Shown: one piece after another, positions 14,359 through 63,926 of the stretch
Numbering within the stretch: the stretch's first letter is position 1
How the letters are laid out: each line of letters begins with the position of its first letter
Assembly: GCA_000004985.1 (NCBI GenBank)
Contig: GG738909.1
Source: Naegleria gruberi
Taxonomy: Eukaryota
Strand: one strand, 5' to 3'
Length of the DNA: 64,000 nucleotides
Program-made: the position numbers and the translations under genes
Notes under the pieces: model-generated
Told to the model about the DNA's origin: nothing
The model's database searches: none
The model's input: the letters and a program-made list of their open reading frames with translations, nothing else

Positions 14359-15801
14359 ATGACCAAGAAGAACACATCATCATCAGCAAGCTCATCCGCA
14401 TCAAAGAAGAAATCAGGAGGTGGTGGTGACGATGATATGAAATTCCTCATGGAAATGCAAAAGAAGAATGAAAAGGAAACAGTCAAACAACAACAACAAT
14501 CGAATGGATCATCGAAAAAACAAACCACCAAACAACCAAAAGATTGGCCTTCCGAACAAACTCAACCAGAACCTACAGTCCCAATCAAGTATTTATTCAA
14601 GGATGAGAAATTCCCACAGGGTGAAATTTGTGAATTAGGAACCTATGATTATAAAACCAAGAGATTTCATCCTTCCGAATTGAAGGAAGGAGCACAAGAA
14701 AAGGATGAAAAATTACAAGAACGTCTCCAGGAGGCTAGACATGCTGCTGAAGTTCACAGAACTGCTAGAAAATGGTTCAAGACTATTGTTAAACCTGGAA
14801 TGAAAGTTATTGATGCTGCTGAAACTTATGAAAATAAGGTTAGAGAATTATTGGAAGCTGATAAGAAAAAGTCTGGACTTGCTTTCCCATTGGGTTGTTC
14901 ATTGAATCATGTTGCTGCTCACTATACACCAAATAGTGGAGATGAAACTGTTATTGGAAAGGATGATGTGATTAAATTCGATTTGGGAACTCATGTTAAT
15001 GGTACAATTATTGATTCTGCATTCACAATGTGTTGGAATGATCAATATCAACCATTATTGGATGCTGTCAAAGATGCCACTAATATGGGTGTTAAGGCTG
15101 CTGGTATTGATGTCAGATTAGGTGATGTTGGTGCTGCCATTCAAGAAGTTATGGAATCTTATGAAGTTGTATGTGTTATTTTGAATACTTTGATTTATTA
15201 ATATTTTTGGATTTCAATTATTTCAATTATTTCAATTATTTGAAATTCACAAATATTCAATTAATTTATTGAACAAATTAATAATGGAATATAATAGACA
15301 ATTAATGGAAAGACTCACAAGGTTAGAAGTATTGAAAATTTGTGTGGTCACTCTGTTGAAAGATATCGTGTCCATGCTGGTAAATCAGTTCCAATTGTTG
15401 CTACTGAAGAAAATACCAAGATGGAAGAAAATGAATTTTTCGCTATTGAAACTTTCGGTTCTACTGGTAAGGGTTACATCAATGAAGAAGGTGTCTGTTC
15501 ACATTATGGCAGAGAATACACATACAATGGTGATGGTTCTGAATTGAGAAATAAGGATTCTAAAGATTTACTCAAAGTTATCAATGAAAACTTTGGATCC
15601 ATTCCTTTCTGTCGTAGATACTTGGACAGAATTGGCCAAAAGAAATATCTTACTGCTCTTCGTGATTTGGTAAACAATGGTATTGTCAATGAATATCCAC
15701 CATTGGTTGATGTTAGAGGTTGTTACACTGCTCAATTCGAGCATACTATTTTCTTGAGACCAACCTGCAAGGAAGTTTTGAGTAGAGGATCCGACTATTA
15801 A
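14359..15801 (+). CDS. metap2: Methionine aminopeptidase 2 (MetAP2, peptidase M24 family). Two exons: 14359..15168 and 15298..15801.
   Basis: Lys/Ser-rich N-terminus followed by [28 protein letters not shown]...[13 protein letters not shown]...[17 protein letters not shown]. After a GTATGT...ATAG intron (15169..15297), the sequence continues [34 protein letters not shown]...[17 protein letters not shown]. It is collinear with human METAP2 ([39 protein letters not shown]). Confidence 0.9.
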
Positions 15802-31300: not shown

Positions 31301-32530
31301 ATCAATTCTCAACTTGGAAGTAATAACTGGACCTTTAGGGAACGGAGAACTGGAAAATATTGCACTCGGATTAATATTGTCACCAATTGGAGGAGATGAA
31401 GAAAATGATGACCAAACAGTTGAATTTGTTGATGTTCCCAAACTATTATTCACATTCTTTCTATTATCTATTCCAATAGGTGAATTTTTGATAAAATGTG
31501 GACTCTTCTTTGGAATAACAACATTCTCTTTCGCAATCGGTTGAGTAGAAGTACTTTGGTTGATCTGTTGTTGTGGCTGCTGATTTCTAGGAGATAAATT
31601 AAATGTAGTCGATGATGGTGAAGTCACCTGATGAGGCATTGAAGGAATTGGTTGTTGAGTATTTCGAGGAGAAACTCCACTATTCTTCTTTGAATGGGAT
31701 CGATGTCTCTCATAGGCAATCATTTGATTATTTGGAGAAACTCCAGCCGATGATGATTGATTCAGTGATGATAAACCTCCTTGTGATGTACCTCCACCTG
31801 AACCAGCAGGTGAAACAGGTGATGTAGAATTTGATGAGTTATTATTACTATTATTATTCATAAATAATTGAAATGAAGGCAATCCTCTATAGGATGAGGG
31901 TGCAATATGATCATGATGACTCTGACTACTCTCATCATCAATTAATTTTGATTTACTTTGAGTGGGTGGCAATCCCGATTGAACCAAATTAGTTCCTTGA
32001 TTATTATTATTAACATTACCAACATTATTAATTGTTAAATTATTAGCACTATTAGCTCTTGAAATATTATAAGGACCACTCGTGCTTGATGTTGTTACAT
32101 ATTGTTGAAGTTGTGGTGATGATATTGGGTTGTTTTTGTTGTAATTTTGATTGGCGGGAAAAGTTGTCGAAGAAACAAGAGAAAAATTGTGATGATGATT
32201 AACACCGACTCGCATGAAGGTTTCTTCCGTTGTGGTTGCCGTGTTGTTGTTATTAGTATTATTATTTGATGCAACAACAGAGGTGTTACTTGATGATGAC
32301 GTCGGATATTGGTGATGGTAATTGGGAGGCTGGTAATTATAATGATGATGATTATTGTGATGGTGATGATTATCTAGAGTTGTTGATTGTTGTTGCTCTA
32401 ACAACAGGTTGCCTTTATTGTTGGTTGTCGTCATTGGACAAAAACCACAGGCGAGTAGAGGTTTGTTGGTGAGTTGATCTGGTAATGGTGATGGAAACAA
32501 GATTAAAGGAGTTTTTTTCTTGAATGTCAA
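28369..32530 (-). CDS. Large C2H2 zinc-finger protein of about 1370 aa: three C-terminal C2H2 fingers, and the remainder N/Q/S-rich low complexity. Two exons: 32530..31235 and 31188..28369.
   Basis: C-terminus: YVCDACGKEFAQFANLKRHLRLHSGNKPYTCTFEGCNKKFVRRSDLQTHMRIHTGERPYVCNVEGCGKTFTTCSNLRRHERSVH. The 462-aa and 938-aa track ORFs are joined in phase 0 by a 46-nt intron (GTAAGTATTGATC...TTTTTTACAG, 31234..31189). The upstream ORF's read-through stop lies inside the intron. Confidence 0.7.
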
Positions 32531-37089: not shown

Positions 37090-39816
37090 ATGCAAATGCT
37101 TCACATTTTGATAATAAGCGTTTTCCTCACGTTGTTGACACCAGCCATATGTCAATTTATTCCACCTGATATTGAAGTCAAACCTATTATTACTGGCCTA
37201 AAGGGACCCTCTTCACTCTTTTACCAACACGACAGTCTCTTCATCCTAGCAACTAATCAACAAATTCTACTCAAGACAGACTTTCAATCAAAGCCAAACA
37301 TTATTCTTGGCATTAACAACACTTTTGGATACAATGGAGATGGAAAACTTGCAAAGGACACCACTTTAAGTAATCCTCACGGTTTACATGTGAATGGCTC
37401 GTTCATTTATATTCCAGATAAATGGAGTCAGCGCTTGAGAATGGTCAACAAGGAAACAATGATTGTTCAAACAATTGCTGGAAATGGAATCTGTGGTTTC
37501 AGTGGTGATGGACAAAAAGTTGGAGTGCCAAATACACAATTGTGTAATCCACAAGGAGTTTTTGTGGAGAAAAATGAGATTTATATTGCAGATACTTTCA
37601 ACAATAGAATTAGAAAGATAGATTCGAATAATTTTCTTTCGACTGTTGTAGGGTCTAGCTCAATTGGTGGGTTTTCAGGGGATGGAGGTCTAGCAACAAA
37701 CGCCAAACTCTTTAGACCTGAATCTGTATTTGTGTATATGAATCAAGGCCAAACTGATATATTGATTGCCGACACTTTTAATAATAGAATCAGATTAGTC
37801 AAGAATGGTATAACCTCAACAATAGCAGGCGGAAATACCCAAGGATACAATGGAGATGGTATTCTTGCTAAAGATGCGTATCTATGTCAACCTAGCTCTG
37901 TATTTGTTACAACAGTTGGTGAAAGTCTTATTGCTGATTATTGTAATCACAAAATTAGAAGAATTTTCACAAATGGAACGATAACTAGTTTACCAATACA
38001 GGTCAGATATCCAAAATCCATTTTTCTTGATCAAACAAATGGCAATCTTTACATCTCTGAATTGGTTGATGGGACAGTTCAACAAGTGACATTTTACTGT
38101 AAAGAAGGATACAAATTGAATGATTTTCTTGTATGTGAACCTGTTTGCCAACAATCATGCAATACGAAAGGTAAATGTTTGGCTCCTGATGTTTGTGAAT
38201 GTCAGGACAGATACTATGGTGAGTTCTGTGAGGAGTTTACATGTTTTGGAATCTCAAAGGATCATCCAATGGTTTGTTCTGGACATGGATCTTGTATTTC
38301 TCCTGATTCATGTGAATGTGAAGTTAATTACTTTAACAGTAACTGCTCAGCAACTTCTTGCTTTGGAAAGAACTCAACCGAGCCATCTGTTTGCAATTCA
38401 CATGGTAAATGCACTTTATTCAACACATGTAAATGTGAATTCAACAAATATGGTGGCAATGAGTGTGAAATTCCTCTATGCAATGGAAAAAACTCTTCAG
38501 ATCCCAATGCATGCTCTGGTAATGGATTCTGTAGCACTGTCGTTTCTCCCGCTTCATGCATTTGCACTCGAGATATGAGTGGAGCATATGTAGGATCTGA
38601 TTGTCAATACCCAACCTGTATTTCAATCCCCTCTTACGAACCGAGAGTTTGCAGTGGAAATGGTCGTTGCTATGGATTTAATTTGTGTGAATGCAAAGAA
38701 GGATACGAAGGACTGTTTTGTGAATCAGTTACATGTGGAACTGGTTGCAAGATAGCTGCTTCAATTCCTGCGAGCGTTGTAGTCGGAGTTTGTGGTGTTA
38801 TTAGTTTGGTTTTGTTTCTGACGAGAACGAAACTGAAAGAATTTGCTAAAAAGCTCACATATACTGAACTTAAAGATATAGAGATAGTACCTTATCAACA
38901 TTTCTACATTGCTACAGAAGATGAAAAATACGAATACAAACTCAAAAGAATATTAGGAAAGGGAGGATTTGGTAAAATTTATGTTTTTGATGAGATTAGT
39001 GATGGGCAAACCATTGAAGTTGCAGTGAAAATCGTTGAGTCAGTTGATATGTCTGTTCTTAATGAGCCTACAACTATGAGTAGGTTACAACATACCCATA
39101 TTGTACCTATTCGTCGTTTTACAATTGTTGGTGATGGAAAGTATACTTGTTTAATTATGCCACTGTATCTCTGTGATTTGAGAAAGTGGTCTCAAAGCTC
39201 ATTGATGACCATTGAACTGATTATTGAAATTGTTAAGCAAACTGCCTTCAATATCTGCACAATATGAATATGGTCCATAGAGATCTGAAACCAGAAAACA
39301 TACTAGTTGAATCTCCAAATCCTTCACAGGATACGATCATTGATATATCCTCATTCCACTTGCGTGTTGGCGATTGGGGATCAGCCAGATTCGAATCTGT
39401 TGAGACAAGCAATGGTTTCACAGCACAGTACTGCTCACCAGAACATTTTCAAGAAGGAATAACTTCCTGCAACAAGAGTGATATTTGGAGTCTTGGATGT
39501 ATTCTCTATCAATTACTCTCATCAGATTACGAATCGAAACTAAATGTAGTGAAACAAAAAACTCAAAGTGATGAAGACGATAAGGAAATTAGGGAAACAG
39601 TAAGGGGAATGACCAAACTGGATGATTCATTCAAGCTTAATTCCATGTGTGATTTAATGCTAAATATGATCAAGTTCAACCCAGAGGAAAGGTAAGTTTG
39701 CTTTGAATCTAATAATCTTAATCATAATGGATAGAATATCTGCTGATGAAATATTGCACAGATTGAGTACCATTAATAATCAGTCAATGGATATAGCTCA
39801 GAATTCTGGCAATTAA
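37090..39816 (+). CDS. Receptor-like Ser/Thr protein kinase. Layout: signal peptide, NHL beta-propeller, 7-8 EGF/tenascin-type Cys repeats, TM, kinase. The catalytic domain is interrupted by a -1 frameshift near 39250. The final small exon 39735..39816 follows a 43-nt intron.
   Basis: Signal MQMLHILIISVFLTLLTPAIC. NHL units (FNNRIRKIDS..., ADTFNNRIRLV..., YCNHKIRRI). EGF-like CxxxGxCxxxxxCxC repeats. TM VVGVCGVISLVLFLT. Kinase motifs LGKGGFGKIY..VAVKIV. The frame then changes between ...LIIEIVKQTA and LQYLHNMNMVHRDLKPENILV..DWGSA..., which are two overlapping track ORFs (37090..39267 and 39264..39695). Then ...FNPEER|GTAAGT..ATAG|ISADEILHRL. Confidence 0.75.
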
Positions 39817-39939: not shown

Positions 39940-41161
39940 ATGTCCTTCGATCTTCTTCCATACGACGTTCAAGGTCACATCCTAAGTTTTCTTTCCTTCC
40001 GAAATGGAGTCAAATGGATGTTCATCTCCAAAGTTTGGTACCAATTATTGAGAGAACATTTATTTTCTCAATATTATTATTGTATTACACTTTATGGAGA
40101 TAACTATTTGCAAAGGCAGGGTCATGCTGCTGTTCCGTATGGTGAGGATAAGTTGATTTTGTTTGCAGGATATGATGGTCATGTAACTGATGAACAGGTA
40201 AGTTGATTGTAAAGTTTTTAATAATATTAAAATGTTTATTGTATATTTTTTCATTACATAGACCAACGAATTGATGGTTTATGATTTGAAAAAAGATTAT
40301 CTTAAACACTTACAAAGATTATCAAAAAACTCCAAAAAAGTTCCAATAGGAAGATCTTTCTTTCCAATGTGTTCTATTGGAAACAATGAATTTGTTTTGA
40401 ATGGAGGATATTGTGACTTCATAACTGATAAGCAGTTGAACGATACTTGGACAATCTCCATTCAAAATAACAATCAACTCGAATGGAAACAAGTCAATCA
40501 AAGTGGTGAAATTCCACCCATTATGGACACCCATTCACTGGTTCACTACAATGGATATTTAGTTTTATTTGGAGGAAGTCAATCAGTTTCTGATGAATTT
40601 CAAAGTGTTTATCATGATATCTATGTTATGAAATTAGAAACTGGAGTTTGGTATAAATTGATATTGGATAGAAATAGTATTTCACCTGGGAATATCACTG
40701 GTCATACAGCACATTTAATTGAAGGAACAAATCAAATGATTTTATTTGGAGGACGAACAAATCAAGGAATTCAAAATCAAATTTGGATTCTTCACATTGT
40801 TTTACCAGATAATTCCAAATATTTCCAAGAATATTCAAAATGGGAATTAGTTAAACCAGTTTCCAAATTAATTCCACAACCAACACTTTATCATGCCTCT
40901 GTTTTGGTTGGTGATGAATTATTTATTTTCGGTGGATGGTCCACCTATAGCTCAACTAATCAATTTCTTGCATTCAATTACAAAACAAGAAACTGGAGAG
41001 ACCTTTCAAAATTAGTAATTGGTCGGACAATCAAAGAAGAATTGCCTTATTCATATGGACATACTTTGACTCTGGTGGGAAATAAGATTGTTTTGATTGG
41101 AGGATGTGGAATTAATGGTTATCAAAAGAATGTTTTAGTTTTTCTTTCATTGAAAAACTAA
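39940..41161 (+). CDS. F-box/Kelch-repeat protein. Two exons: 39940..40197 and 40262..41161.
   Basis: N-terminal LLPYDVQGHILSFLSFRNGVKWMFISKVWYQLL is F-box-like. Intron CAG|GTAAGT...ACATAG| in phase 0. Downstream repeated Kelch-type units (GGY..., W....GE.P..., H..V.Y.G.L.LFGG). Confidence 0.75.
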
Positions 41162-47952: not shown

Positions 47953-49066
47953 ATGCGCACGCAATATCTCATCTTGTTTTCAATCCTCTCACTTTTCCTT
48001 GCCTTGTTCTTCTATCAACAAGTACAAGAATCAAAAAAAACAACATCATCACTCGATTTTAAACAAGGAATGTCTTCAGCAACAACTTCTGGAAGAGGAT
48101 TAAAAGCCATTGTAGTAGGATCAACAGGTTTGGTCGGAAAGAACGTTGTCAGAGTCTTGTCTCAACAAAATCCTCAAGAATATGCCAAGATTGTGGCCAT
48201 TTCGAGAAGAAAGGACAATCCATTCAATTATGAAACAAGTGTTCCTATTGAACATATTACATTGGATAGTTTGGATAATTTGGATCAAATTTCTGATGTT
48301 TTTAATGAAGTAGAGTAAGTTTTTAGACGAATCATCATGAAATTAATATTTAAATAATCAATTTATTATAATTAATCAATTGATTGCTATTATCATGTAA
48401 TATTCGGAAATTATATTTATTTGGAATATAAACAGTGAAGCATATTGTTGCTTGGGAACAACTATCAAAAGAGTTGGAAATGATAAGCAAAAGTTTAGAC
48501 ACGTTGATTTTGATTATCCAGATTCATTTGCTAATTTGGTTTACAAATCATTCACCAATGCTGCTCAGAACACTTCCGAGAATTTGAAACAATTCTTCCT
48601 TGTCACTTCTACAGGAGCTGATAGCAGTTCAATGTTTTTCTACAATCAAGTGAAGGGAGATATTGAAAAGTCGGTTGCTCAAAAGCAATTGGATTATCAA
48701 CAATTTACTCAAGGAAAATCACTCAATCAATCTTCTTACTGTCACATTATCAAACCAGGTTTATTAATTGGAGAACGTGAAAATGATGAAAGATTTGGAG
48801 AAAAGGTTGCTCAAAATTTGAATAATTTATTATCGTGGGCACTTCCAAGAAGTGTGAGTGGAATTAAGGGAGAGGAAGTTGCCAAAGCAATGCTTCAAAT
48901 TGCTGCCACAACAAGACAACAAAAATTGGATCTTTTGAAGGAAAGAGATTCTCATTCATCTGTTGGAGGAGTGGATCAAGCAACTCGTTTCACAAATCGA
49001 ATCTTTGCTCATGGAAATGCAAATCTCAAAGATTATTCAGATGAGTATGATCTTACTCGTAAATAA
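47953..49066 (+). CDS. HTATIP2/TIP30-like NAD(P)-binding oxidoreductase. Two exons: 47953..48314 and 48436..49066.
   Basis: Rossmann motif AIVVGSTGLVGKNVVRVL. After the GTAAGT...AACAG intron: (D)EAYCCLGTTIKRVGNDKQKFRHVDFDY...FFLVTSTGADSSSMFFYNQVKGDIEKSV, collinear with human TIP30 ([23 protein letters not shown]...[28 protein letters not shown]). Confidence 0.75.
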
Positions 49067-53104: not shown

Positions 53105-56100
53105 ATGGATATGCGTGGATTGTCAGTGTTCATTTCCGACATTAGAAAATGTTAGTATATTGTTTTTTTGTTGGTTTTTTAACTGGCTTTTGGATATGAT
53201 GTTTTTGTTGTTGTTGTTTAAATATTCTTGTCATTATTAATTATAATCGATCCTGATCGTATTGTTGTATTATAATTACTTCCTTTTCAACAATACCAAT
53301 ACGATATTTAACAATGATTTAACTTGTGGATTATACACTCAACAATAATAATACAATAACAAAATAATAACAACAACAAATACTTGCGCGATGATACAAT
53401 AATTGCTCGCTGCTCTATCCAACACCTCTATTGTTGGTCGTCATCGATAATAACAACAACAAAATTTTTATTAATATTACACAATAATTAACAGCAACTA
53501 CAAAGGAAGAAGAACAATCTAAAGTAGAAAAAGAATTAGCCAAGATCAGAGGTAAATTCAAGAATGGTGGAGCTCTTAAAGGATATGATCGTAAGAAGTA
53601 TATCTGTAAATTGCTCTATATTTACATGCTTGGTTATGAAATTGAATTTGGTCACATTGAAGCCGTCAATTTGTTGGCTTCACCAAATTACTCTGAAAAA
53701 CATATGGGTTATCTTGCTTGTTCATTGTTGTTGAACGAAAATCACGAAATGGTTACACTTATTACCCAATGTATGAAGAATGATTTGAATAGCAAAAATC
53801 CAAATGATCAATGTTTGGCACTTACAGCTATTGCCAACATTGGTGGTAAGGAACAAGCTGAAGCTCTTGCTCACGACGTACAAAAATTGCTCATCTCCAA
53901 CGAAACCAAATTGACTGTCAGAAAAAAGGCTGCTCTTACTCTCTTGAATTTGCATAGAAAATACCCAGAAAGTTTGCCTCCAGATTCTTGGTCCGAAAAG
54001 GTTATTGCTCTTATCAATGGTAGAGATCTTGGTGTTATTACCAGTGTTATGAGTTTAATTTTGGGACTTGCCGAAAAGAATCCAGAAGCTTATCAAGATG
54101 CAGTTTCAAAGACTGCTCGTTTATTGATGAAGTTGGTTTTGAACAGAGAATATTCTACATCATATTTGTACTACAAGATTGCTGCCCCATGGTTGCAAGT
54201 TAAAGCTTTCCAATTACTCCAATACTACCCAGTTCCAGAAGATAAGGCCATCTATGACTCTATCATCCAAGCTATTGAAAAAGTTATTCAAATTGCTAAG
54301 AAATCAAAGGAAACTACATCAAAGAGTGTGAGTCAAATTAATGCTGCTCACAGTGTTCTCTTCGAAGCAATGAATCTTGCTATTCACTACGATTCATCAA
54401 AGACAATCTTGGTGACAGCTTGTTCCATGTTAACTAAATATTTGAAGGATAGAGAAACTAACTTGCGTTATCTTGCTCTTGATACTCTCTCACGTATGGC
54501 TTACTCTCAATTCGATGAAGTTTTGGCTACTATCAGAAAGGAACAAGATACCATTTTACTTGCTTTGAAGGATCCTGATATCAGTATTAGAAGAAGAGCT
54601 CTCGATTTGTTGTACAGTATGTGTAACAGAGATAATGCTGGTGAAATTGTTGGTGAATTGCTCAACTATTTGCCACTTTCCGACTATGCTATCAGAGAAG
54701 AATTGGTTTTGAAGATTGCCATTCTTGCTGAAAAGTTCTCTGTTGATCTCACTTGGTATGTCGATGTTGTTCTCAATTTGATTTCCCAAGCTGGTGACTT
54801 TGTTGCTGATGATATTTGGCACAGAGTTATCCAAATCGTCACAAACAAGGGTGAAGAATTACAAAAGTACACTGCTCAAACTGTTTTCAGTGCTGTTTCT
54901 TCTCCAGCTGCTCATGAAACTTGTGTCAAGATTTCTGGTTACATTTTCGGTGAATTTGGTGACTTGATTGCTGATAATCCTCAAACTGATGCTTTTTCTC
55001 AATATGAATTGATCTTGTCCAAGTTCAACTTGTGTTCAACCACTACTAAGTGTCATTTGTTCAACTCTTTGATGAAGTTGTACAATTTGTATCCTGATAA
55101 CCAAGGACTCCGTGATAATATTAAGGATGTTTTCGAAAAGCACACCAATTCTTTCGATGCTGAATTGCAACAAAGATCTGCTGAATATTTGGCTCTCATC
55201 AATACTGGTGATGAAGATCTTATTCAAGCTGTCATGGATAACATGCCAATGTATCCAGAACGTGACTCTCAAGTCATTAAGAGATTGATGGAAAAAGAAG
55301 CTGCCAAGAAGCGTGGTGCTACTGGTACAGGAAGAGAAAACAACGAAGACGAAGAAGAAGAAAATCCAGATTTGGATGTTCAAGTACCTGAAACCAAACA
55401 AGGTGGAAATGATTTGTTGGATATGCTCGATATGGGTGGTTCTTCAAATAACAATAATGCTGGAGGATATAGTATGGATGACATTTTGGGAGGATTTGGT
55501 GGACCAGTTTCTCAACCACAACCAACTAATAATGGAGGAGGTTTGAGCATGGACGATATTTTGGGAGGATTTGGTGGACCAGTTACTCAACCACCTGTTC
55601 AACAACCACCACAAAACAATGTTGGTGATTTCTTTGGAGGAGGTGTTAACATTGCTGCTCAAGCTGCCAACATGGGTAAGCAAAAGAAGGAACAAAGAGA
55701 TACTACCGGATTCAACTTTGATGATGTTGTAGTTGCTAACAGAGATAATGCTCTTGAACAAAACGAACAAGTCCATCAAGACGCTGCTGTTAAGCATCAA
55801 GTTTTGCTCAAGTCTAACGAAGGTGTTGCCATTGAAGACGAACATTTGCAAGTCAAGATTAAGACTGAATATCACGGATGTAAGGGTAGACTTATTCTCC
55901 TCTATGGTAACAAGACTACTAATCCATTGACTCAATTCAAGGTTCACATTCTCGTTCCAAAGGAATTGGAAGCTCAAATTTCCAAGGTTCCACCAATGAT
56001 TTCACCAAAGACTCAAGTCCAACAATACGTTGACTTGGTTGCTAAGGGCCCATTCAGCCAATTGACTGATTTGGATTTGTACTTTGAAGCTAATCGTAGA

Positions 56101-56502
56101 TATTACAGATTCAACATCAAGTTGCCAATCGTTCCACACAAGTTTGTTGAACCATTGGTCATCCAAGGTGCTGAAAACTTCTTTAAACAATGGCACGCAA
56201 TTGGAAAGGAACAAGAAGTCCAAAAGATTTTCCCATGCACTCCTGTATATTCTGATGTAAATGCCTGTGCTAAGGTTTTGTCTGAAGGTTTCCGTTTGGC
56301 CATTTTGACTGGTATTGACAATCCAAGTAATATTGTTGCTGCTGGTTCTTTCTTCTATGATCCTGTTGGTAAGGTTAACGTTTTATTACGTCTTGAATAC
56401 AATGCTCCAAAGCAAGCTTACAGATTAACTGTCAAGGCTCAAGATGCCACTATTGCTCAACAAGTTTTCAATTACATCTTACAAGAACTCACCTCCCAAT
56501 AA
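53105..56502 (+). CDS. ap2a1: AP-2 complex subunit alpha (alpha-adaptin). Two exons: 53105..53150 and 53495..56502.
   Basis: Exon 1 is MDMRGLSVFISDIRK, followed by donor GTTAGT, a 344-nt intron and acceptor TTAACAG|. Exon 2 begins STTKEEEQSKVEKELAKIRGKFKNGGALKGYDRKKYICKLLYIYMLGYEIEFGHIEAVNLL, collinear with human AP2A ([55 protein letters not shown]). HEAT/ARM trunk, G/Q/P-rich hinge, C-terminal appendage. Confidence 0.85.
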
Positions 56503-56677
56503 TTTAAATAAACCTAATTTATTTACTTCGTGTAAAAATGATTAATCTATTATTTGAGCTAGCTCCAATTAGACATTTGCAGCCTATTTATTGGAGAGAT
56601 TCTCAACTTTGTTCATAACATTTACTCCAAAGTATTATTTGGAGATAGGTAGGCTTCATAACAGAGCTCAAAATAAA

Positions 56678-59181
56678 TTACTCCAAAGTATTATTTGGAG
56701 ATAGGTAGGCTTCTTGATTGATTGTCAAGGTAATATTATCATTGTTTCTTGTTGGTGTTTTGGGTTCATTCAATGTTTCAAGATTTGCAGAATTTTTCTT
56801 TTGTAAAATGTTTAAACTTGTTCTCAACATGTCAGTGAAGGATGGAACAAGAGCTGGAGTGTGATGTTTCTCATGCAACATGTAAGCAATACATTCACCT
56901 TTTCCTTTCACATTTAAATGTCTTTCTTCAAAAGTGAAACCCAAATCATAAACTCTTTCGTAGGTTGATCTGGAAATTTGAATTCTTCCTGGAATTGAAT
57001 TAGATTCCATTCTTGAAGCTGTATTAATTGTATCTCCCCATAAATCCTATTTAATTAAATATTAAGATGAAGTATTGAAAATGTACATGTTAAAATGTTA
57101 AAATGTTGAAATTAAAAACATACATATGCAAATTTCTTCCTCCCAATAACACCTGCAATAACACTTCCAGTATTAATACCAACACGAATATTAATTTGTT
57201 CAGATGGATGTTTTCCTGATTTTGAATTAAATCTTTGTAAAACATCAAATGTATCAATGGAAAATCTCAAAATTCTTTCAGGATGATCTGATTGTGCATT
57301 CAATCCATGTAATCCACCCACACAAAAATATGAATCTCCAATCGTTTTAATCTTTTCCAAATTATACTTGTCTGTCAAATCATCAAATCCAATTACAATT
57401 TCATTCAACATTTGAACCAATTCAGATGCTTGAATTCCAGTACTCAATTTTGTAAATCCCACCATGTCACTAAAAAAACATGAAACATCATTGAATTTCT
57501 CTGCAATATAAGTTTCTCCTGATTTCAATTTACTTGCTACTGCACTTGGTAAAATATTCAATAATAATTCTTCAGAATGTTTCTTTTCTTCTGTCAATAA
57601 TGAATTATGTTTCTTCTCTGTTGTAATATCCTTAATGAAACAAGTTACAACACTTTGAGAATTGTGAAGAGTGGCAAAAATATTGACACGTGATGGGAAG
57701 CTTGTTTGATTCTTTCTGATACATTCCAATTCAATAGAATCTCCTTTCGAATCACCTCTTGCTGCATTCACCAACATTTCATCAATGAGGTTTTTAATTT
57801 TCGATTGCTCATTCTTTTCAAATAATTGATACAATGATCTTCCAATCGTTTCTGTTTGATTGTATCCAAATATCTTTTGAGCTGCTGGATTGAATATTTC
57901 AATATCAACCTTCTCTCCACTGCACATCACTGCTCCATCTACAGATGCATTCAAAATGCTTCGAACTTTTGAGTCACCTTCCCCTAAATTTGACTTCTTT
58001 TTGAGGAGGGAAGACAATGTATTTGGAATATGGTGATGTACAATGTAATTCTTGATATTTTCATTAGAATCCATTAACTCAATTGATAAATAGTTAAAAA
58101 GAAGACGAAGTTGTTGGACAGAGTTGGCATGTTGATGTAAGGACCAACGAATGGCAAGTGAAATGGAGATAATTGCAATAAATCCAACGAAACTGAATGC
58201 GTAGACAAGTTCTTCATCAGTTATGGCAGCATCTTTTGAAAAAACAGTAGAAAAATCAATCAATTGATCTGAAATGGCTCTGGAAAGATGGAAATGTTTA
58301 ACAAACGTTTCGAACAGCTTCAAGTTATTAATTTTTCCGTTTTCATCCATTAGCTCCATTATTTCATTGGAAATTGTGACGAAATTTGTAATCATATCAT
58401 CAATTCCCATAACGCACGAATGATTACCATCTTCTTTAAACATGTCAGTCAATGTACAATTTTCCTGACCTGCCACGAGTAAATTTACATCATCAAATTT
58501 TCCAAGTATGGTATTTTCTGGATTCTCTCCAATGGATGTTCCATAAATACATAAATTCCAATGGTTTTTCAAGTCACTTGATTTTTCAGTAACATAATGC
58601 TTTGGATTGGATGTAAAATTGTATAAATTAGAAACTCTGAAGAAAGCATCATTGTTGGAGCGAAATCCAGATATAATATACTTCTCAGTGATAAAATTAC
58701 TCAAATATTGAATATCTTCAAAAGTTTGGAATGATTCTTTCATAATAACATAGGATCCGTAACATTGATTCACATTTTGTAAAGTTTCCAATAAGAATAG
58801 CCCACAACAAACTGAAACAATTAGAGAGAGAATAAGAGCCAATACAACTACAACACTCCTTGGATATTTCCAAACACTCTTGACTGGATGAGTTGATGTA
58901 TCATCATTGACTACCTTACTCAATTCATGGAATAATCTTCCTGCATCATTTTTTGAAACATTCTTCTCAATGAGAAGAACTATCTTTGTTATAACAGATA
59001 GATCTAACTTAGAGTAGAATACATAAAGAGATGTATAGAGGAAGTAGACTGTCACAATGATGGAAAAGTAAATGATAAAAGTATTAGTAATTAGTTGAGT
59101 TTCATCCTTTGAACTGGAAACAAAATTCACACAAAAATCAGAATAGGCAGTAACCATTCTCTCGGAATTAAAGTACTGCAC
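56678..59181 (-). CDS. ACG-like sensor nucleotidyl cyclase. Layout: TM, extracellular domain of about 230 aa (CHASE-like), TM, PAS-like region, class III adenylyl/guanylyl cyclase catalytic domain. Last intron 57123..57047. Probably continuous with the 59208..62087 ORF through a 41-nt intron.
   Basis: Cyclase motifs FSDMVGFTKLS, KIKTIGDSYFCVGGL, INIRVGINTGSVIAGVIGRKKFAY|GTATGT..AAATAG|DLWGDTINTASRMES. PAS-like IFNPAAQKIFGYNQTETIGRSLYQLF. Two TM helices flank a Cys-containing extracellular segment of about 230 aa. Confidence 0.75.
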
Positions 59182-59207
59182 ATGATTAGAATAAAACTCT
59201 AGAACAA

Positions 59208-62087
59208 CTAACTTACCAATAACATAAAGGGATAACTTGACAGAAAACTCTCTAGGTCTGCTAGTCCAAATTTAGAAATAGTTTCAGAGTGTGTATAGAA
59301 TAAATTTGTAATATCTGCAATAGTGGTATTAGTAGTGGTCGAAATGTTATAAACCTTATCGATTTCTGTTGCTGGCCATGAAGTTGGTAAATTGAAAGTG
59401 TAATAAATTTCATGATATTCAGAGTACATTTCCTGTGTGAATTTTCCGTCATGAACCAATTCTCGCACTGATTTCAAAATGTCCCTGTAAGTATTAATGT
59501 GTTCTAACATTTCTTCATGATAATGTTCCAAAGAAGTATATCCATACTTGGACATGACATTCATCCATTCAACCATTGAGTGATTGTACAAATATGTGAT
59601 TGGTTGAAAAGCTCTCATACTAGACATGATCTGAACAGAGGCGCCAACTGGAGCACAAGCTGTTTCCACTATTTTAACAGTGCCTGAAATATAGGATGAG
59701 AATGAAACACTCAAAGCCAAACTAACACTCAAAAACAAGATGGAAAATAAGACAAATAGAGAGAAGAGGAAAACTTGGAGAGTGTGTCTGTGTGGAAGGC
59801 TCAGTGAAGTTCTGAATACGTTTTCCTTTCTAAATTCTGGATTATTCTCAATTCCATTGAATTCTGGATTGGTTTCTGCCTCTTTCTGATCGCCATAGAA
59901 TGAACTGCTCTCACTTCTAATGTCGTGTTCCTGGAGATGGATACCAATATTTGGGCCTTCTTGTGTTGGAACTATTCTGTTTTTAAACTTGGACTTTTGA
60001 TTCCTCTTCTTTCTTAATTGAGCATTTCTTTTGGTTTCTTCCTCTTCCAAACTTGATGCTTCAGCATACAGCTCTTGAGCAGCATCCTTATTAAACTTGA
60101 ATTCTTCAATGTATTTGGCAAAATTTCGTAATAAATTCTTGTCATTCTTATAAATTGCCAACATGTTCAAAAACTTGGTTTCACATTCATTGGAAATAAT
60201 TCCCATTCTTACAATGATTGATTCAATCTTATCCCTCAAGACACATTCCTGGAGCATTTCCTTCCAGAACATTCTGTGAAGGGCTTTCAATTCATTTTGT
60301 CTCCTTTCGAGAATGAACATTACTTCACTCATTTCTTCAGTATTTTTGGCATTTGGATTAATTTGATGAACTATAATGTCAACTTCCTTCTGTTTCAAAT
60401 AGATGAGGAATCTATACCATGTATTTGGTCTCTTTTTTATGGCTCTCCTTAAAATTCCTTTGGAAAATGTTGTGGCATTGACATCATTTACGAGACAATT
60501 TGATGCTATAGAACTTGATAAGAGAAGAATATCATTATCGAGTTGTGAGTTGAGTGATGATATACCTCTAACAAGAGAAAGAGACATTTTCAGATTGCTC
60601 AACATATTTGGATTGCTGGAAAGAGTTGGATCTTCTTCATCTGTTGGAATCTTTTCCTTAATGGAGAATTTCAAAAAAAGTTTCAGATAATTCAACTTTT
60701 TGGATTCTAGAAAGTATTGGTAAATATTAATGGAATCCTTCTCGATTGCCTTTTCCAGTAAATCAGGGAAACCATTATTAGATTCATTTCTAATACCTTC
60801 AATTACAATAAATCGAACACTTCTAATCAAAATTCTTGTAATCGCCTCCATTACCATCATTCCAACAAAAAAAGAGATGATAATCATTGCCAAAGTCATT
60901 CCAGCTAGACCAATTCCCAGCACATTATCAACTGACTTGTAAATTGCCGAAAGATTTGGATTATTTACAACGCCACTAATTAGAGAACCAAAACTTGAGA
61001 AGATCCTTGCAGATAACACTCCAACCATAATGGAATTCTCAAATCTCTTAAAATATGGAACGTTTTTCGAAAAACCAATCATTAAACCAATCGAAACTAT
61101 CAAATGCACAATCGATCTGATAAATGCATACTGAGGAGGAATCACATAATGTGAAAGAATTTGGAATTGAGTACAAATCATTGTTCCAATAAGGAAAATT
61201 GGATGATCAGAAGTGAATGGAGAAAAGTGTTGGGGATGACAATTCGTCACAATTAATAGAGAAAAACATGATAATATCATTTGAATGATTATTCCAATAA
61301 TCATGATGGCCATGAAGGCAATATTAATAGTTGAATAACATTCAATGTTCTGGTTTGAATATTGTAAAAAACGGTTGAGAACTGAGACAGAACCAAGATT
61401 ACAATCAAGTGGTGTTGTCAATAGGTAAACAGCTGGAAGAGAAACGAGTAGAAAAAGTTTCGAACCAAGGGCCAAACCTTTCTTTGTCCATTTCAAATAT
61501 TGAGAAGTTGTTTTGTAAGCATACACACTCCAAACCAAGTAAACAATAAATAACAGCTCTACAGCTATAACCACAAACGCTAGAGCCAACGAACCTATAT
61601 AAGGTAACCTTTCGAATGATAAAGTCAAAGGATAGTTCAATACAGAAAAAACCCATGTTCCCCACTCTCCGTATTTCATTTCCATTCCAAGATTTGGCAA
61701 GAATATACCAATCCAAAATACATAAGTATGAAATAGTAAACTAATCAAATAGGAATATAGACCTTCTCTTAATTGTGCCTCTTGCATGAAGAATATAAAA
61801 TCCATAAGTTGATTTCTGAGCTTGATTCCAATCGAAATCTCAGAGCCAGTAATATCTGTTGTTGAATATTTGGAATGTTGGGACGAGAAGGATACATTTG
61901 ATGAGCTAGAGGTATGTTGTCCATGAACTGAGGGAATATTCAGATAACTTGTTGGAGTCGTCTGGTTTCTAGCAACGGTTGACCCACGACGTGAAGTACT
62001 AGCAATAGAGATTGAATCCTCTTCTATGGCAATATTGTTGTTGTTAGTATTATTCAATTGATTTATACTAGCATTGGGATGCAACAT
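59208..62087 (-). CDS. Large multipass membrane protein: about 9 N-terminal TM helices, a cytosolic region of about 330 aa, then further TM and an extracellular segment. The C-terminal end is most likely spliced (59216..59176 intron) onto the ACG-like cyclase ORF downstream.
   Basis: The ORF ends ...SYPFMLL followed by GTAAGTTAG (the stop is inside a consensus donor). A CAG acceptor sits 41 nt later, in frame with YFNSERMVTAYSDF... of the next ORF. Hydrophobic helix clusters at residues about 100-440 and about 750-775. No family recognised. Confidence 0.55.
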   Translation of the reverse strand: MLHPNASINQLNNTNNNNIAIEEDSISIASTSRRGSTVARNQTTPTSYLNIPSVHGQHTSSSSNVSFSSQHSKYSTTDITGSEISIGIKLRNQLMDFIFFMQEAQLREGLYSYLISLLFHTYVFWIGIFLPNLGMEMKYGEWGTWVFSVLNYPLTLSFERLPYIGSLALAFVVIAVELLFIVYLVWSVYAYKTTSQYLKWTKKGLALGSKLFLLVSLPAVYLLTTPLDCNLGSVSVLNRFLQYSNQNIECYSTINIAFMAIMIIGIIIQMILSCFSLLIVTNCHPQHFSPFTSDHPIFLIGTMICTQFQILSHYVIPPQYAFIRSIVHLIVSIGLMIGFSKNVPYFKRFENSIMVGVLSARIFSSFGSLISGVVNNPNLSAIYKSVDNVLGIGLAGMTLAMIIISFFVGMMVMEAITRILIRSVRFIVIEGIRNESNNGFPDLLEKAIEKDSINIYQYFLESKKLNYLKLFLKFSIKEKIPTDEEDPTLSSNPNMLSNLKMSLSLVRGISSLNSQLDNDILLLSSSIASNCLVNDVNATTFSKGILRRAIKKRPNTWYRFLIYLKQKEVDIIVHQINPNAKNTEEMSEVMFILERRQNELKALHRMFWKEMLQECVLRDKIESIIVRMGIISNECETKFLNMLAIYKNDKNLLRNFAKYIEEFKFNKDAAQELYAEASSLEEEETKRNAQLRKKRNQKSKFKNRIVPTQEGPNIGIHLQEHDIRSESSSFYGDQKEAETNPEFNGIENNPEFRKENVFRTSLSLPHRHTLQVFLFSLFVLFSILFLSVSLALSVSFSSYISGTVKIVETACAPVGASVQIMSSMRAFQPITYLYNHSMVEWMNVMSKYGYTSLEHYHEEMLEHINTYRDILKSVRELVHDGKFTQEMYSEYHEIYYTFNLPTSWPATEIDKVYNISTTTNTTIADITNLFYTHSETISKFGLADLESFLSSYPFMLLVS

Positions 62088-62563
62088 GTTTTTTTGTAGT
62101 TGTTTTGTTGTAGACTTTCGTTTGGAATGAATCTAAGAATTATTTTCTAATCCATTGTTTGAAACTTTCTGATTTAAACTTGATAGAGAATTTGGATATA
62201 AATAGAAATATTAAGCAGTGTACCGTTAGAATTTAAAATACAATAATGAGCTAGATGTGTTTTCAGGTAATGCACATATACAGATTATGTAATTCTTGAA
62301 GAAGTATTAAATAACTTCATTTAACTTCATTTAGCTAGAATGCTAGCACCATACAATTATACATCAGATTGATTCATTATGAAAACATGTCTGTGTCCAT
62401 TTAAATACAGTTCCCTGTTTGCATTCCGTGCTTGTAATATAATAATAATTACTATCATCATTAGTGATAATTATCACTACATATTCGAAAAATCAGCTGC
62501 CAAGTATCATCTGTAGTTTTTTTTACGTTATTTTTGGTGGGAAATTTTTAGGGAAAGTTTTCT

Positions 62564-63926
62564 GTGGAGGAGTGTGATAAAATTTTCAAAGCAATAGATA
62601 AACCAAATTTATATCTTCTAACAACGTTTCTTAAAAAACCAATAGATATGCAAAGGAAAAGGGACTTGTGGAAGCAATTTGATAACATGATTCAGAAAAT
62701 GTCAATTCAACAAAAGAAAAAAACATCAATTCATATTTGTGGAATTTCATCATTAGGGAAATGTGCCAATACAATTTCCAATCGGCAATGGATTATTTCT
62801 ACTTGGTGAAGAGAAAATCTAGCTTTATTGGAGAAGTACACTTTGAATAATTTATTAAATTCGTGCAGTACTTTTGGAACGTGGGAGGCTGAGTTTATAT
62901 TTCGAAACATTGAGGCACGTGACAAGTTTCATTATTCCTGCTACATCAAAGCTGGATGCACCACAAAAGAATCTGCTTTAAAGCTGGAAGAATTAATTAT
63001 TAATAGTGGATTTTTCAATGATATAATTGTCCAAACAAGCCTCATTTCTATGTTCTCCAAGTGTGGGTTATTAGAAAGGTCTATTGAACTGTTCAACAGC
63101 ATGGAGAAGAAACCAACAGCAAGATGGAATGCAATGCTTTCCGCATACGCACATCACTCTCTTTACAATGAAGTACTACTGTTATTCAGCGAGATGGAGG
63201 AATCTTCAATTGAGACGGACAAGCAAACTTTTAGCTATGCTATTCTAGCCCTATCGAGTCTTGGAAAATCTCACTATCATGCACTAATCAAGGGATGTAT
63301 TAACAGTTCGAATTTCTCAAGCTTTGAATGTTTTAGAGCTGATGAAAAGAAAGCGAATTCCACTAAGCTCTCGAATATTTATATCACTCATGAATGAATG
63401 CATCAAAAGTGGTATTTTGTATGATGCAAAAGTTTTACATCAAGAAATTGTTGAAAATCTACCTTCTTTTTTGTCTGATCCCTTTCTGGTAGTGTCATTA
63501 ATTAATATGCTTGGTTGTTTCAATCAGTCCCAGGCAGTATTGGATGTTTTTGGTGGGTACAATGGACAAGATGTGGCCGTGTTAAATGTTACATTGTCAG
63601 CTCTTTACAAGGATGGTTTAATTCATAATGCTCTCAATCTATTCTATGAAAATACGAAAAATTACAAGTTTGATGAAAAAACATTTACAATTATTTTAAC
63701 AATGTGCAAAGACATGCAAAACGACGATAGTGTAAAGGGTCAACAATATTTTGAAATGATGAAACAATATGAAGTTGAACCAAATATCTTCCATTATACA
63801 TGTCTTATCAAGTGTTTTCTCTCAGAAAAGCAATTTGAAAGGGCTCTGGATATTCTCTTTGATATTCATTTGAAAGGAATTCTAATTGATGATGCTTGCT
63901 TTAACTCTTCCGGGGGGTCTCTTTAA
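62564..63926 (+). pseudogene. Plant-type PLS-class pentatricopeptide-repeat (PPR) protein gene, with an in-frame TGA (62807-62809) and a +1 frame change near 63300. Either disrupted or mis-assembled. The 3' end may continue past the last stop.
   Basis: PPR/PLS-like units: SLISMFSKCGLLERSIELFNSMEKKPTARWNAMLSAYAHHS, EVLLLFSEMEESSIETDKQTFSYAILALSSLG, ALNVLELMKRKRIPLSSRIFISLMNECIKSGILYDAKVLHQEIVEN, DVAVLNVTLSALYKDGLIHNALNLFYENTKNYKFDEKTFTIILTMCKD. Three track ORFs (62564..62809, 62828..63397 and 63324..63926) are separated by one stop and one frame change. Confidence 0.6.

What the first reader, a model, noticed from the sequence alone, without database searches (positions are those of the whole stretch)
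56678..62087. Possible ~1760-aa fusion of an unclassified multipass membrane domain with an ACG-like TM/sensor/PAS/class-III cyclase
Two adjacent minus-strand ORFs (59208..62087 and 57112..59181) are separated only by GTAAGTTAG...TGTGCAG (41 nt). The upstream ORF's stop codon sits inside the consensus donor, and the downstream ORF continues in frame after the CAG. Three other introns in this window have the same size class (43-52 nt). The downstream part has the architecture of the Dictyostelium osmosensing adenylyl cyclase ACG (TM, extracellular sensor, TM, cyclase) plus a PAS-like segment. The upstream about 960 aa adds roughly nine further TM helices and a cytosolic domain of about 330 aa that I cannot assign to any family. 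Ion-channel or transporter-like domains fused to cyclases are known in alveolates, but I am not aware of this layout in amoebozoa. It could be a novel signal-transducing cyclase.
Basis: partly seen in the sequence, partly recalled or inferred. Interest (0 to 1): 0.72.

Follow-up and report, generated by a model that had tools for sequence, protein, structure and literature searches.

The report
Annotated Naegleria TmcB–PAS–adenylyl cyclase gene
The two ORFs are one three-exon gene of the amoeboflagellate Naegleria gruberi, already in the reference annotation, encoding a large membrane protein with a cAMP-making enzyme at its end; it belongs to a big, untested Naegleria receptor-cyclase family, so the locus is real but ordinary.

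Summary
ORFs 59208..62087 and 57112..59181 (minus strand) are joined by a 41-nt phase-0 GTAAGT...CAG intron. A second, 77-nt intron splits the cyclase domain.

The spliced 1763-aa product is exactly RefSeq XP_002671034.1 / EFC38290.1 / UniProt D2VY24 (NAEGRDRAFT_73946, "predicted protein"). The window is therefore Naegleria gruberi (Heterolobosea), not a dictyostelid.

Residues ~95-1300, on both sides of the intron, form one TmcB-family scaffold: a 7-8 TM bundle, a cytosolic TPR_TmcB domain (PF25474) and two TM-loop-TM modules. This scaffold is colinear with a Dictyostelium TmcB/TmcC protein. Only the PAS domain and the class III cyclase are added to it.

The cyclase has all six canonical catalytic residues, with the Lys/Asp pair that predicts ATP specificity.

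The same layout occurs in at least 30 of 113 cluster representatives, from N. gruberi, N. fowleri, N. lovaniensis and Willaertia. One paralog encodes it in a single intronless 1736-aa ORF.

It is not ACG-like, not a channel or transporter fusion, and not new. Function is untested. Two side points are mildly interesting: Dictyostelium tmcB is reported to regulate cAMP signalling, and a neighbouring paralog has a near-identical PAS-cyclase module but a scaffold only about 30-50% identical.

The parts
56678..62087 (-). Whole coding region of N. gruberi NAEGRDRAFT_73946 (XP_002671034.1, 1763 aa), start ATG to stop TAA
   Evidence: The spliced translation is an exact match to EFC38290.1/XP_002671034.1/D2VY24.
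59217..62087 (-). Exon 1 (aa 1-957): low-complexity N-terminus, TM bundle, cytosolic TPR domain, TM8, most of loop 1
59176..59216 (-). Intron 1: 41 nt, GTAAGT...CAG, phase 0, with an in-frame TAG
   Evidence: Sequence. Gap-free paralog alignment across the junction. Intron at the same position in L002. The stop is retained in the 98.8%-identical contig L001.
57124..59175 (-). Exon 2 (aa 958-1641): end of loop 1, TM9, TM10, loop 2, TM11, linker, PAS, first two thirds of the cyclase
57047..57123 (-). Intron 2: 77 nt, GTATGT...TAG, phase 0, immediately before the substrate-specifying Asp1642
   Evidence: Restores FAY|DLWGD. L001 carries a 7-nt indel here, so it is non-coding. L002 has a break at the same position.
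56678..57046 (-). Exon 3 (aa 1642-1763): last third of the cyclase (D1642, N1649, R1653), tail and stop
60798..61805 (-). N-terminal bundle of 7-8 TM helices (aa ~95-430)
   Evidence: Hydropathy scan. AF2 helices at pLDDT 70-88. Aligned to the TM bundle of Dictyostelium TmcB/TmcC P0111.
59778..60797 (-). Cytosolic helical-repeat domain (aa ~431-770) containing Pfam TPR_TmcB (aa 594-686, window 60030-60308)
   Evidence: PF25474, E 2e-12, 47.5 bits against a cutoff of 27. The only weak fold matches are TPR or helical-repeat proteins.
59020..59774 (-). TM8 - extracytoplasmic loop 1 (~190 aa) - TM9; interrupted by intron 1
58150..58854 (-). TM10 - extracytoplasmic loop 2 (~200 aa, the most divergent segment between paralogs) - TM11
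   Evidence: 31% identity to P0001, against 50% for the bundle
57970..58149 (-). Conserved juxtamembrane linker (aa 1300-1359; QQLRLLFNYL...DSNENIKNYIVHHH)
   Evidence: Invariant L1313, R1314, N1318, Y1319, L1320, S1327; family consensus
57622..57969 (-). PAS domain (aa 1360-1475)
   Evidence: PAS_9 E 1.2e-14 and PAS E 4.9e-8. The closest solved relatives are FixL haem-PAS domains at E 4e-7, but the proximal His aligns to Ile.
57508..57564 (-). Helical segment before the cyclase (aa ~1495-1513, LLLNILPSAVASKLK), read as a cyclase-transducer-element-like motif
   Evidence: Aligns to the equivalent pre-catalytic helices of AC8 and AC9. The motif assignment is my own reading, not a tool result.
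56873..57504 (-). Class III nucleotidyl cyclase catalytic domain (aa 1515-1699; spans intron 2)
   Evidence: PF00211, E 2.5e-53. D1527, D1571, K1567, D1642, N1649 and R1653 align to the canonical residues of AC8/AC9.

Best explanation
This is the annotated three-exon N. gruberi gene NAEGRDRAFT_73946. It encodes a 1763-aa integral membrane adenylyl cyclase.

Anatomy (shown):
- A TmcB-family scaffold covers aa ~95-1300. It consists of a 7-8 TM bundle, a ~340-aa cytosolic TPR_TmcB domain and two TM-loop-TM modules, each with an extracytoplasmic loop of ~200 aa.
- A conserved juxtamembrane helix follows, then a cytosolic PAS domain, a short helical transducer-like segment and a class III catalytic domain.
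- The catalytic domain has both metal-binding Asp, the Lys/Asp substrate pair, and the Asn/Arg transition-state pair.

Mechanism (inferred):
- One chain carries all six catalytic residues, so the enzyme should act as a homodimer with two symmetric ATP sites and make cAMP.
- Activity is probably set by the scaffold and the PAS domain. A cue sensed by the rapidly diverging extracytoplasmic loops, and/or a PAS ligand, would be passed through TM11, the juxtamembrane helix, the PAS domain and the transducer helix to the geometry of the cyclase dimer. This is how other receptor-type class III cyclases work.
- The gene is one of dozens of paralogous 'sensor scaffold + PAS + cyclase' receptors that Naegleria uses for environmental sensing. 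The ligand is unknown.
For: Gene model:
- Exact identity of the spliced product to XP_002671034.1.
- Neighbouring ORFs are exact matches to N. gruberi proteins on the same 250,472-bp scaffold.
- Junction homology and a conserved intron position in L002.
- Intron 2 has a 7-nt indel in strain contig L001, while the exons show 29 synonymous against 16 nonsynonymous differences.

Single polypeptide:
- Paralog L003 encodes TPR_TmcB + PAS + Guanylate_cyc in one uninterrupted 1736-codon ORF.
- At least 30 of 113 cluster representatives carry scaffold + PAS + cyclase in one chain. The named ones come from N. fowleri, N. lovaniensis, N. gruberi and Willaertia magna.

Domains:
- Pfam TPR_TmcB, PAS_9 and Guanylate_cyc, all above their curated cutoffs.
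- The family HMM aligns Dictyostelium firmibasis TmcB/TmcC residues 7-983 in one stretch (E 1e-42) and residues 1260-1391 to the last loop and TM.
- The TM topology matches.

Catalysis:
- Alignments to AC8 and AC9 C1 and C2 domains place D1527 and D1571 (metal), K1567 and D1642 (adenine specificity), and N1649 and R1653.

Sensor role of the loops:
- Against the neighbouring paralog, loop 2 is 31% identical and loop 1 is 41%. The TM bundle and TPR domain are ~50%, and PAS-cyclase is 99-100%.
Against: - No transcript data could be consulted, so splicing rests on homology and on the pre-existing annotation.
- No enzymatic or genetic data exist for any family member.
- Both structure predictions were poor (mean pLDDT 62 and 49), and fold searches gave only generic helical matches. 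The fold of the TM bundle and loops, and hence the sensing mechanism, remain unknown.
- The PAS cofactor is unknown. The FixL-type haem His is absent.
- The number of TMs in the bundle (7 or 8), and so the side on which the N-terminus lies, is unresolved.
Confidence: 0.85

Rival explanations
1. Two independent genes: a 959-aa TmcB-like membrane protein ending at TAG 59208, and a separate cyclase gene starting at M964 (MVTAYSDF...).
For: A stop codon ends ORF 1, and prokaryote-style gene callers split the locus into 959-aa and 681-aa products. An in-frame Met lies 6 codons after the acceptor.
Against: Only 41 nt separate the ORFs, and they are bounded by GTAAGT..CAG in phase 0. Homology, including the invariant N960, continues upstream of M964. 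The split would cut extracytoplasmic loop 1 in two. The same intron position occurs in L002. An intronless paralog has everything in one ORF. The reference annotation joins the two ORFs.
Confidence: 0.03
2. The scaffold is a channel or transporter whose transport activity is coupled to the cyclase. This would parallel the alveolate P-type-ATPase-guanylyl cyclases or K+-channel-adenylyl cyclases, and is the reader's analogy.
For: There are eleven or twelve TM helices and a large membrane domain of unknown fold. The cyclase domain retrieves Aphanomyces and Paramecium P-type ATPase-cyclase fusions, which shows such fusions exist.
Confidence: 0.12
3. The enzyme is a guanylyl cyclase, or a catalytically dead regulatory module, rather than an adenylyl cyclase.
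For: Database names are generic ('adenylate/guanylate cyclase'; 'Guanylate cyclase domain-containing protein'). Specificity has not been measured.
Against: The specificity pair is Lys1567/Asp1642, where guanylyl cyclases have Glu/Cys. All metal and transition-state residues are present.
Confidence: 0.08
4. The PAS domain is a FixL-like haem O2 sensor, which would make the protein an oxygen-regulated cyclase.
For: The best solved-structure matches of the PAS segment are FixL and DosP haem-PAS domains (E 4e-7 to 4e-3).
Against: The FixL proximal His in the motif RSRHDSY aligns to Ile in this protein, and no His is conserved there in the family consensus.
Confidence: 0.07

Closest known systems
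N. gruberi XP_002671034.1 / EFC38290.1 / UniProt D2VY24 (NAEGRDRAFT_73946, 'predicted protein')
   Same: Identical over all 1763 residues. It is this gene, with both introns spliced as deduced here.
   Different: Nothing in sequence. The database entry carries no functional name.
Naegleria/Willaertia 'membrane bound PAS domain-containing adenylate/guanylate cyclase' paralog family (e.g. EFC38208.1, EFC38254.1, EFC39969.1, N. fowleri FDP41_001627, N. lovaniensis C9374_003576, W. magna ABK040_006139)
   Same: Colinear TM bundle + TPR_TmcB + two TM-loop-TM modules + PAS + class III cyclase, in chains of 1400-1800 aa.
   Different: Identity is only 25-48% over the scaffold. The loops are highly divergent. 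Intron content differs: L003 has none, and L002 has at least four breaks in the tblastn match.
Dictyostelium TmcB/TmcC ('tiny macrocysts') proteins, Pfam PF25474
   Same: The TPR_TmcB domain, the same order of TM bundle / cytosolic TPR / TM-loop-TM / TM-loop-TM, and a colinear HMM alignment over ~980 residues. tmcB is reported to regulate cAMP signalling in sexual development (Muramoto et al. 2005, PMID 15817229, as cited in PMC12750705 and PMC8516963).
   Different: The Dictyostelium protein ends ~30 residues after the last TM, with no PAS domain and no cyclase. A Gefionella homolog has scaffold + PAS but no cyclase.
Mammalian membrane adenylyl cyclases AC8/AC9/AC5 (class IIIa)
   Same: These are the best solved-structure matches of the catalytic domain (E 4e-67 to 6e-58). 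The same catalytic residues and the same pre-catalytic helix motif are present.
   Different: The mammalian enzymes are pseudo-heterodimers of C1 and C2 in one chain with 2x6 TM. This protein has a single catalytic domain that combines C1- and C2-type residues, which implies a homodimer, and an unrelated membrane scaffold.
Dictyostelium ACG / trypanosome receptor adenylyl cyclases
   Same: A single class III catalytic domain behind a TM-flanked extracytoplasmic region, with presumed homodimeric receptor-cyclase logic.
   Different: No homologous sensor domain was detected. A PAS domain lies between the membrane and the cyclase. The TM-loop-TM belongs to the TmcB scaffold. There are about eight additional TMs and a TPR domain.

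Membership tests
Class III nucleotidyl cyclase (PF00211), adenylyl-specific | Catalytic-domain profile match above the curated threshold | tested here: met
   180.8 bits against a cutoff of 21.9, profile positions 3-182 of 183; E 4e-67 to AC8
Class III nucleotidyl cyclase (PF00211), adenylyl-specific | Two metal-binding Asp plus the transition-state Asn and Arg | tested here: met
   D1527, D1571, N1649 and R1653 align to the canonical residues of AC8/AC9 C1 and C2
Class III nucleotidyl cyclase (PF00211), adenylyl-specific | Lys/Asp substrate-specifying pair (adenylyl cyclase) rather than Glu/Cys (guanylyl cyclase) | tested here: met
   K1567 in EKIKTIGD and D1642 in FAYDLWGD
Class III nucleotidyl cyclase (PF00211), adenylyl-specific | Measured cAMP synthesis | not testable with these tools
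   Needs an enzyme assay
TmcB/TmcC family (PF25474) | TPR_TmcB profile match above the curated threshold | tested here: met
   47.5 bits against a cutoff of 27, aa 594-686
TmcB/TmcC family (PF25474) | Colinear homology with a Dictyostelium TmcB/TmcC protein beyond the TPR domain, and the same TM layout | tested here: met
   The family HMM aligns P0111 residues 7-983 (E 1e-42) and 1260-1391 (E 2e-5). The TM pattern matches: an N-terminal bundle of about 5-8 hydrophobic segments followed by four TMs in two TM-loop-TM pairs.
TmcB/TmcC family (PF25474) | Role in cAMP signalling or macrocyst development | not testable with these tools
   Known only from the literature on D. discoideum tmcB (PMID 15817229, via PMC12750705 and PMC8516963)
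Naegleria membrane-bound PAS-cyclase paralog family | Full-length colinear alignment with named members | tested here: met
   35% identity over 92% of the query to EFC38208.1, and 54% over 90% to EFC38254.1
ACG-type / trypanosome receptor adenylyl cyclase | A recognisable extracellular sensor domain (periplasmic-binding-protein or CHASE type) directly coupled through one TM to the cyclase | tested here: not met
   No such Pfam domain at E<=1. The loop is predicted to be helical, at low confidence. A PAS domain intervenes. The region is homologous to the TmcB scaffold.
Alveolate transporter/channel-cyclase fusions | P-type ATPase or voltage-gated K+ channel domain in the membrane part | tested here: not met
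   No such Pfam hit. No such fold match, though the model was of low confidence.
FixL/DosP haem-PAS sensors | Proximal His haem ligand in the F-alpha helix | tested here: not met
   The FixL His in RSRHDSY aligns to Ile (SKIKNL)

The most novel reading that the evidence does not exclude
The heterolobosean fusions may act as a 'Rosetta stone' for the uncharacterised TmcB family. On this reading the TmcB scaffold is a receptor module that directly gates cAMP synthesis. It is covalently fused to PAS-adenylyl cyclase in Naegleria and Willaertia. It would act in trans on a cyclase in Dictyostelium, where tmcB loss perturbs cAMP signalling.

The family may also evolve by diversifying its extracytoplasmic loops while gene conversion keeps the output module uniform. 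Neighbouring paralogs D2VY24 and D2VY33 have PAS-cyclase modules 99-100% identical, but scaffolds only about 30-50% identical.
Probability: 0.3. Interest if true: 0.5.

Novelty: already known. Interest (0 to 1): 0.2.

Why it matters
For the scan, this shows the finding is a correct gene-structure call on a gene the N. gruberi reference annotation already contains. It is not a new amoebozoan signalling architecture.

Biologically, the family is large and experimentally untouched. PMC9928731 counts at least 81 Naegleria cyclases of all architectures. The only modest new angle is the link between a TmcB-type scaffold and a cAMP-producing domain. That link gives a testable idea for what Dictyostelium TmcB does.

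Tried and rejected
- **Word-indexed homolog searches had poor recall.** One search missed the 99%-identical P0015. One search returned only P0015. One search, run with a 28-sequence profile, returned only P0001 and P0016 from the family.
- **Structure prediction was weak.** The exon-1 part (5 sequences) gave mean pLDDT 62 and pTM 0.48. The exon-2 part (4 sequences) gave pLDDT 49. The second model was too poor to search.
- **The paralog's DNA could not be fetched.** No N. gruberi NCBI record could be retrieved through the look-up of encoding contigs: look-ups of P0001 and P0014 found nothing. I could not fetch the D2VY33 locus to test gene conversion at the DNA level.
- **Chimeric gene model for P0001, considered and thought unlikely.** I asked whether P0001 might borrow this locus's 3' exons. 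The single H1613Q difference argues for a separate genomic copy.
- **Distant paralog L004.** The ORF breaks within about 5 codons of the intron-1 position, but I could not reconstruct a clean in-frame GT-AG junction. Inconclusive.
- **Internal duplication of the two TM-loop-TM modules.** hhalign gave probability 51%, E 1.5e-4, in register. Suggestive only.
- **Literature.** Muramoto et al. 2005 is not held in the library.
Full report
**1. Observation**

The ORF listing reproduces the two minus-strand ORFs, 59208..62087 (959 aa) and 57112..59181 (689 aa), plus a third at 56678..57010.

The minus-strand sequence at the junction reads TTA TTG | GTAAGTTAGTTGTTCTAGAGTTTTATTCTAATCATGTGCAG | TAC TTT AAT TCC GAG AGA ATG. 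This is a 41-nt GT-AG segment at 59216..59176. Its donor GTAAGT contains the ORF-1 stop TAG, and it sits in phase 0 on both sides.

A second interruption lies at 57123..57047 (77 nt, GTATGT...TAG). Removing it restores the hallmark cyclase motif KKFAY|DLWGDTINTASRMES.

Joining 62087..59217, 59175..57124 and 57046..56678 gives 5292 nt, encoding 1763 aa, with a single terminal stop.

**2. Is the intron real?**

- Aligning the spliced product with three N. gruberi paralogs gives no gap at the junction: SSYPFMLL|YFNSERMVTAYSDFC against SSYPFMILFNNRNIMTAAYSSFC, DDYAFMWVYYNNDTVIQAFNSFC and TSGDFMFLWTNRNGGSSAFDAYC. The invariant residues F954, M955, N960, A967 and C972 straddle the junction. N960 lies upstream of the alternative start M964.
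- A ~40%-identical relative on Logan contig L002 has a 57-nt GTAAGT...TAG intron with an in-frame TAA at exactly the same codon boundary (SYPFMVL|FLNADYVTSAYSDFC). It also has a break at the intron-2 position.
- A 98.8%-identical metagenome contig, L001, keeps the stop and therefore the 959-aa ORF. It carries a 7-nt indel inside intron 2, while its exons differ by 29 synonymous and 16 nonsynonymous substitutions.
- A window-wide scan for GT[AG][AT]GT...YAG segments of 30-130 nt bridging open frames of at least 100 codons found six candidates: 41, 46, 64, 77, 121 and 129 nt. There are only 20 GTAAGT hexamers on the two strands combined.
- The 1763-aa product is an exact match to EFC38290.1 / XP_002671034.1 / UniProt D2VY24, NAEGRDRAFT_73946.

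The reference annotation therefore already contains this very model.

**3. Organism**

Three other window ORFs are exact matches to N. gruberi proteins on a 250,472-bp scaffold: EFC38243.1, EFC38285.1 and EFC38246.1. GC content is ~34%. The window is Naegleria gruberi (Heterolobosea, Discoba), not a dictyostelid.

**4. Anatomy**

Pfam gives three domains above their curated cutoffs:
- TPR_TmcB (PF25474), aa 594-686, E 2e-12.
- PAS_9 / PAS, aa 1360-1475.
- Guanylate_cyc, aa 1515-1699, E 2.5e-53.

Hydropathy analysis and the AF2 secondary structure indicate the following layout:
- a 7-8 TM bundle (aa ~110-430);
- a ~340-aa cytosolic helical domain;
- TM8 (772-790), loop 1 (~190 aa) and TM9 (985-1009);
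- a short cytosolic stretch;
- TM10 (1065-1083), loop 2 (~200 aa) and TM11 (1281-1299);
- a conserved juxtamembrane helix, then PAS, a pre-catalytic helix (LLLNILPSAVASKLK) and the cyclase.

Four TMs lie between the TPR domain and the PAS-cyclase part, which puts both on the same side of the membrane. That side must be the cytosol, because the cyclase needs ATP.

**5.

The data say otherwise.

- An HMM built from 28 family sequences aligns a Dictyostelium firmibasis 'TmcB/TmcC TPR repeats domain-containing protein' (P0111, 1416 aa). Its residues 7-983 align in a single stretch to HMM positions 28-946 (E 1e-42). Its residues 1260-1391 align to positions 1114-1238.
- Its hydropathy pattern matches: a bundle at 47-275, then TMs at ~702-735, 952-985, 1175-1200 and 1353-1385. 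It ends 30 residues after the last TM.
- A Gefionella homolog has scaffold + PAS but no cyclase.

So aa ~95-1300 is one ancient TmcB scaffold, intron 1 simply falls inside loop 1, and the PAS-cyclase part is what was added. No periplasmic-binding-protein or CHASE-type domain, P-type ATPase or ion-channel domain is detected.

**6. How common is the layout?**

An exhaustive phmmer search with the exon-1 product against 1.84 billion cluster representatives found 113 relatives at E<=1e-3. Local domain mapping shows at least 30 of them with scaffold + PAS + cyclase in one chain of 1400-1800 aa. Most of the shorter ones are fragments broken by introns or contig ends.

Named members come from N. fowleri, N. 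lovaniensis, N. gruberi and Willaertia magna. One N. gruberi paralog is already named 'membrane bound PAS domain-containing adenylate/guanylate cyclase'.

In contig L003, a paralog close to EFC39969.1 is a single uninterrupted ORF of 1736 codons carrying TPR_TmcB, PAS and Guanylate_cyc. That shows the fused architecture is a single polypeptide without relying on any splicing inference.

PMC9928731 notes that Naegleria encodes at least 81 cyclases used for environmental sensing.

**7. Catalysis and mechanism**

Alignments to AC8 and AC9 place the following residues:
- D1527 (FFSDMVGFT) and D1571 (IGDSY) at the two metal-binding positions of the C1 domain.
- K1567 (KTIGD) and D1642 (YDLWG) at the adenine-specifying positions of the C2 domain.
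- N1649 and R1653 (NTASRME) at the transition-state positions.

All six residues in one domain imply a homodimeric enzyme with two complete sites and ATP specificity. This follows from established class III cyclase knowledge; activity was not measured.

The PAS domain is closest to FixL and DosP haem-PAS domains (E 4e-7). However, the proximal His aligns to Ile, so a FixL-type haem sensor is not supported.

The most likely mechanism is therefore a receptor-type, homodimeric adenylyl cyclase whose output is set by the scaffold, chiefly its two fast-evolving loops, and/or by a PAS ligand. This is inferred from the architecture.

**8. Structure attempts**

These results agree with a TPR-like cytosolic domain. 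They neither support nor exclude a transporter-like TM fold.

hhalign of the two TM-loop-TM modules gave an in-register match, probability 51% and E 1.5e-4. This hints at an internal duplication but is inconclusive.

**9. Side observation: a neighbouring paralog**

EFC38254.1 / D2VY33 (P0001) lies on the same scaffold. From the run of UniProt accessions I infer it is only a few genes away, outside the window. Its identity to this protein, by segment, is:

| Segment | Identity |
|---|---|
| TM bundle | 51% |
| TPR domain | 50% |
| Loop 1 module | 41% |
| Loop 2 module | 31% |
| Juxtamembrane linker | 66% |
| PAS (aa 1356-1480) | 100% |
| Cyclase up to intron 2 | 99.4% (one difference, H1613Q) |

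That annotated model ends 'FAYVCF', which is read-through of intron 2. It is probably truncated and lacks D1642, N1649 and R1653.

The step change in identity exactly at the start of the added module suggests recent gene conversion or module exchange between neighbours. I could not obtain the DNA to test this.

**10. Link to TmcB**

D. discoideum tmcB is described as regulating the cAMP pathway during sexual development (Muramoto et al. 2005, PMID 15817229, as cited in PMC12750705 and PMC8516963). A covalent fusion of the same scaffold to an adenylyl cyclase in Heterolobosea fits that description. It suggests, but does not show, that TmcB scaffolds are cyclase-coupled receptors.

**11. Verdict**

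It is wrong on taxon, on the modular parse and on novelty. The locus is an already annotated member of a large, functionally untested Naegleria family. Interest is low.

Noticed in passing
window 56678-58000 (aa 1356-1641), compared with N. gruberi EFC38254.1/D2VY33 on the same scaffold, outside the window: The neighbouring paralog has a PAS-cyclase module 99-100% identical (one H->Q change), but a scaffold only 31-51% identical. The switch is abrupt, at the PAS boundary. This suggests gene conversion or module exchange. That paralog's annotated model ends 'FAYVCF', which is unspliced intron 2, so it is probably truncated.
   Followed up: partly
window 62552-63532: About 981 bp are replaced by ~32 nt in the 98.8%-identical metagenome contig L001. 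The segment includes the 5' part of a plus-strand PPR-repeat gene (ORFs 62828-63397 and 63324-63926, Pfam PPR_2/PPR). An 11-nt TTTTTGGTGGG motif lies near both breakpoints. This could be a strain deletion or an assembly artefact.
   Followed up: partly
window 56622-56657 and 56678-56713: A perfect 36-nt direct repeat: the last 11 codons plus the stop of the cyclase gene are duplicated 56 nt downstream, in the 3' flank.
   Followed up: partly
window 31189-31234 (minus strand): A candidate 46-nt GTAAGT..ACAG phase-0 intron joins ORF 31142-32530 to the C2H2 zinc-finger ORF 28369-31185. Other candidates that bridge long ORFs lie at 15169-15297 (129 nt), 40198-40261 (64 nt) and 48315-48435 (121 nt) on the plus strand.
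   Followed up: no
window 1604-4789 (-), 5751-8051 (-), 37090-39267 (+), 53611-56502 (+): Neighbouring genes include a heparinase II/III-like protein, an NHL/teneurin-like repeat protein, an NHL+EGF protein with the start of a kinase domain, and AP-2 alpha-adaptin, which converges tail-to-tail with the cyclase gene. No tRNA genes were found in the window.
   Followed up: partly
L004 6880-6970 (Logan SRR29240419 contig; distant paralog, 27% identity): The ORF breaks within about 5 codons of the intron-1 position and resumes in another frame. No clean in-frame GT-AG junction could be reconstructed. Possible causes are a non-canonical splice site, a shifted intron or an assembly error.
   Followed up: partly
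P0115 (Gefionella okellyi transcript, 1754 aa): A malawimonad TmcB-family protein has the scaffold followed by a PAS domain but no cyclase. The TmcB+PAS combination therefore also exists outside Heterolobosea, without a cyclase.
   Followed up: partly
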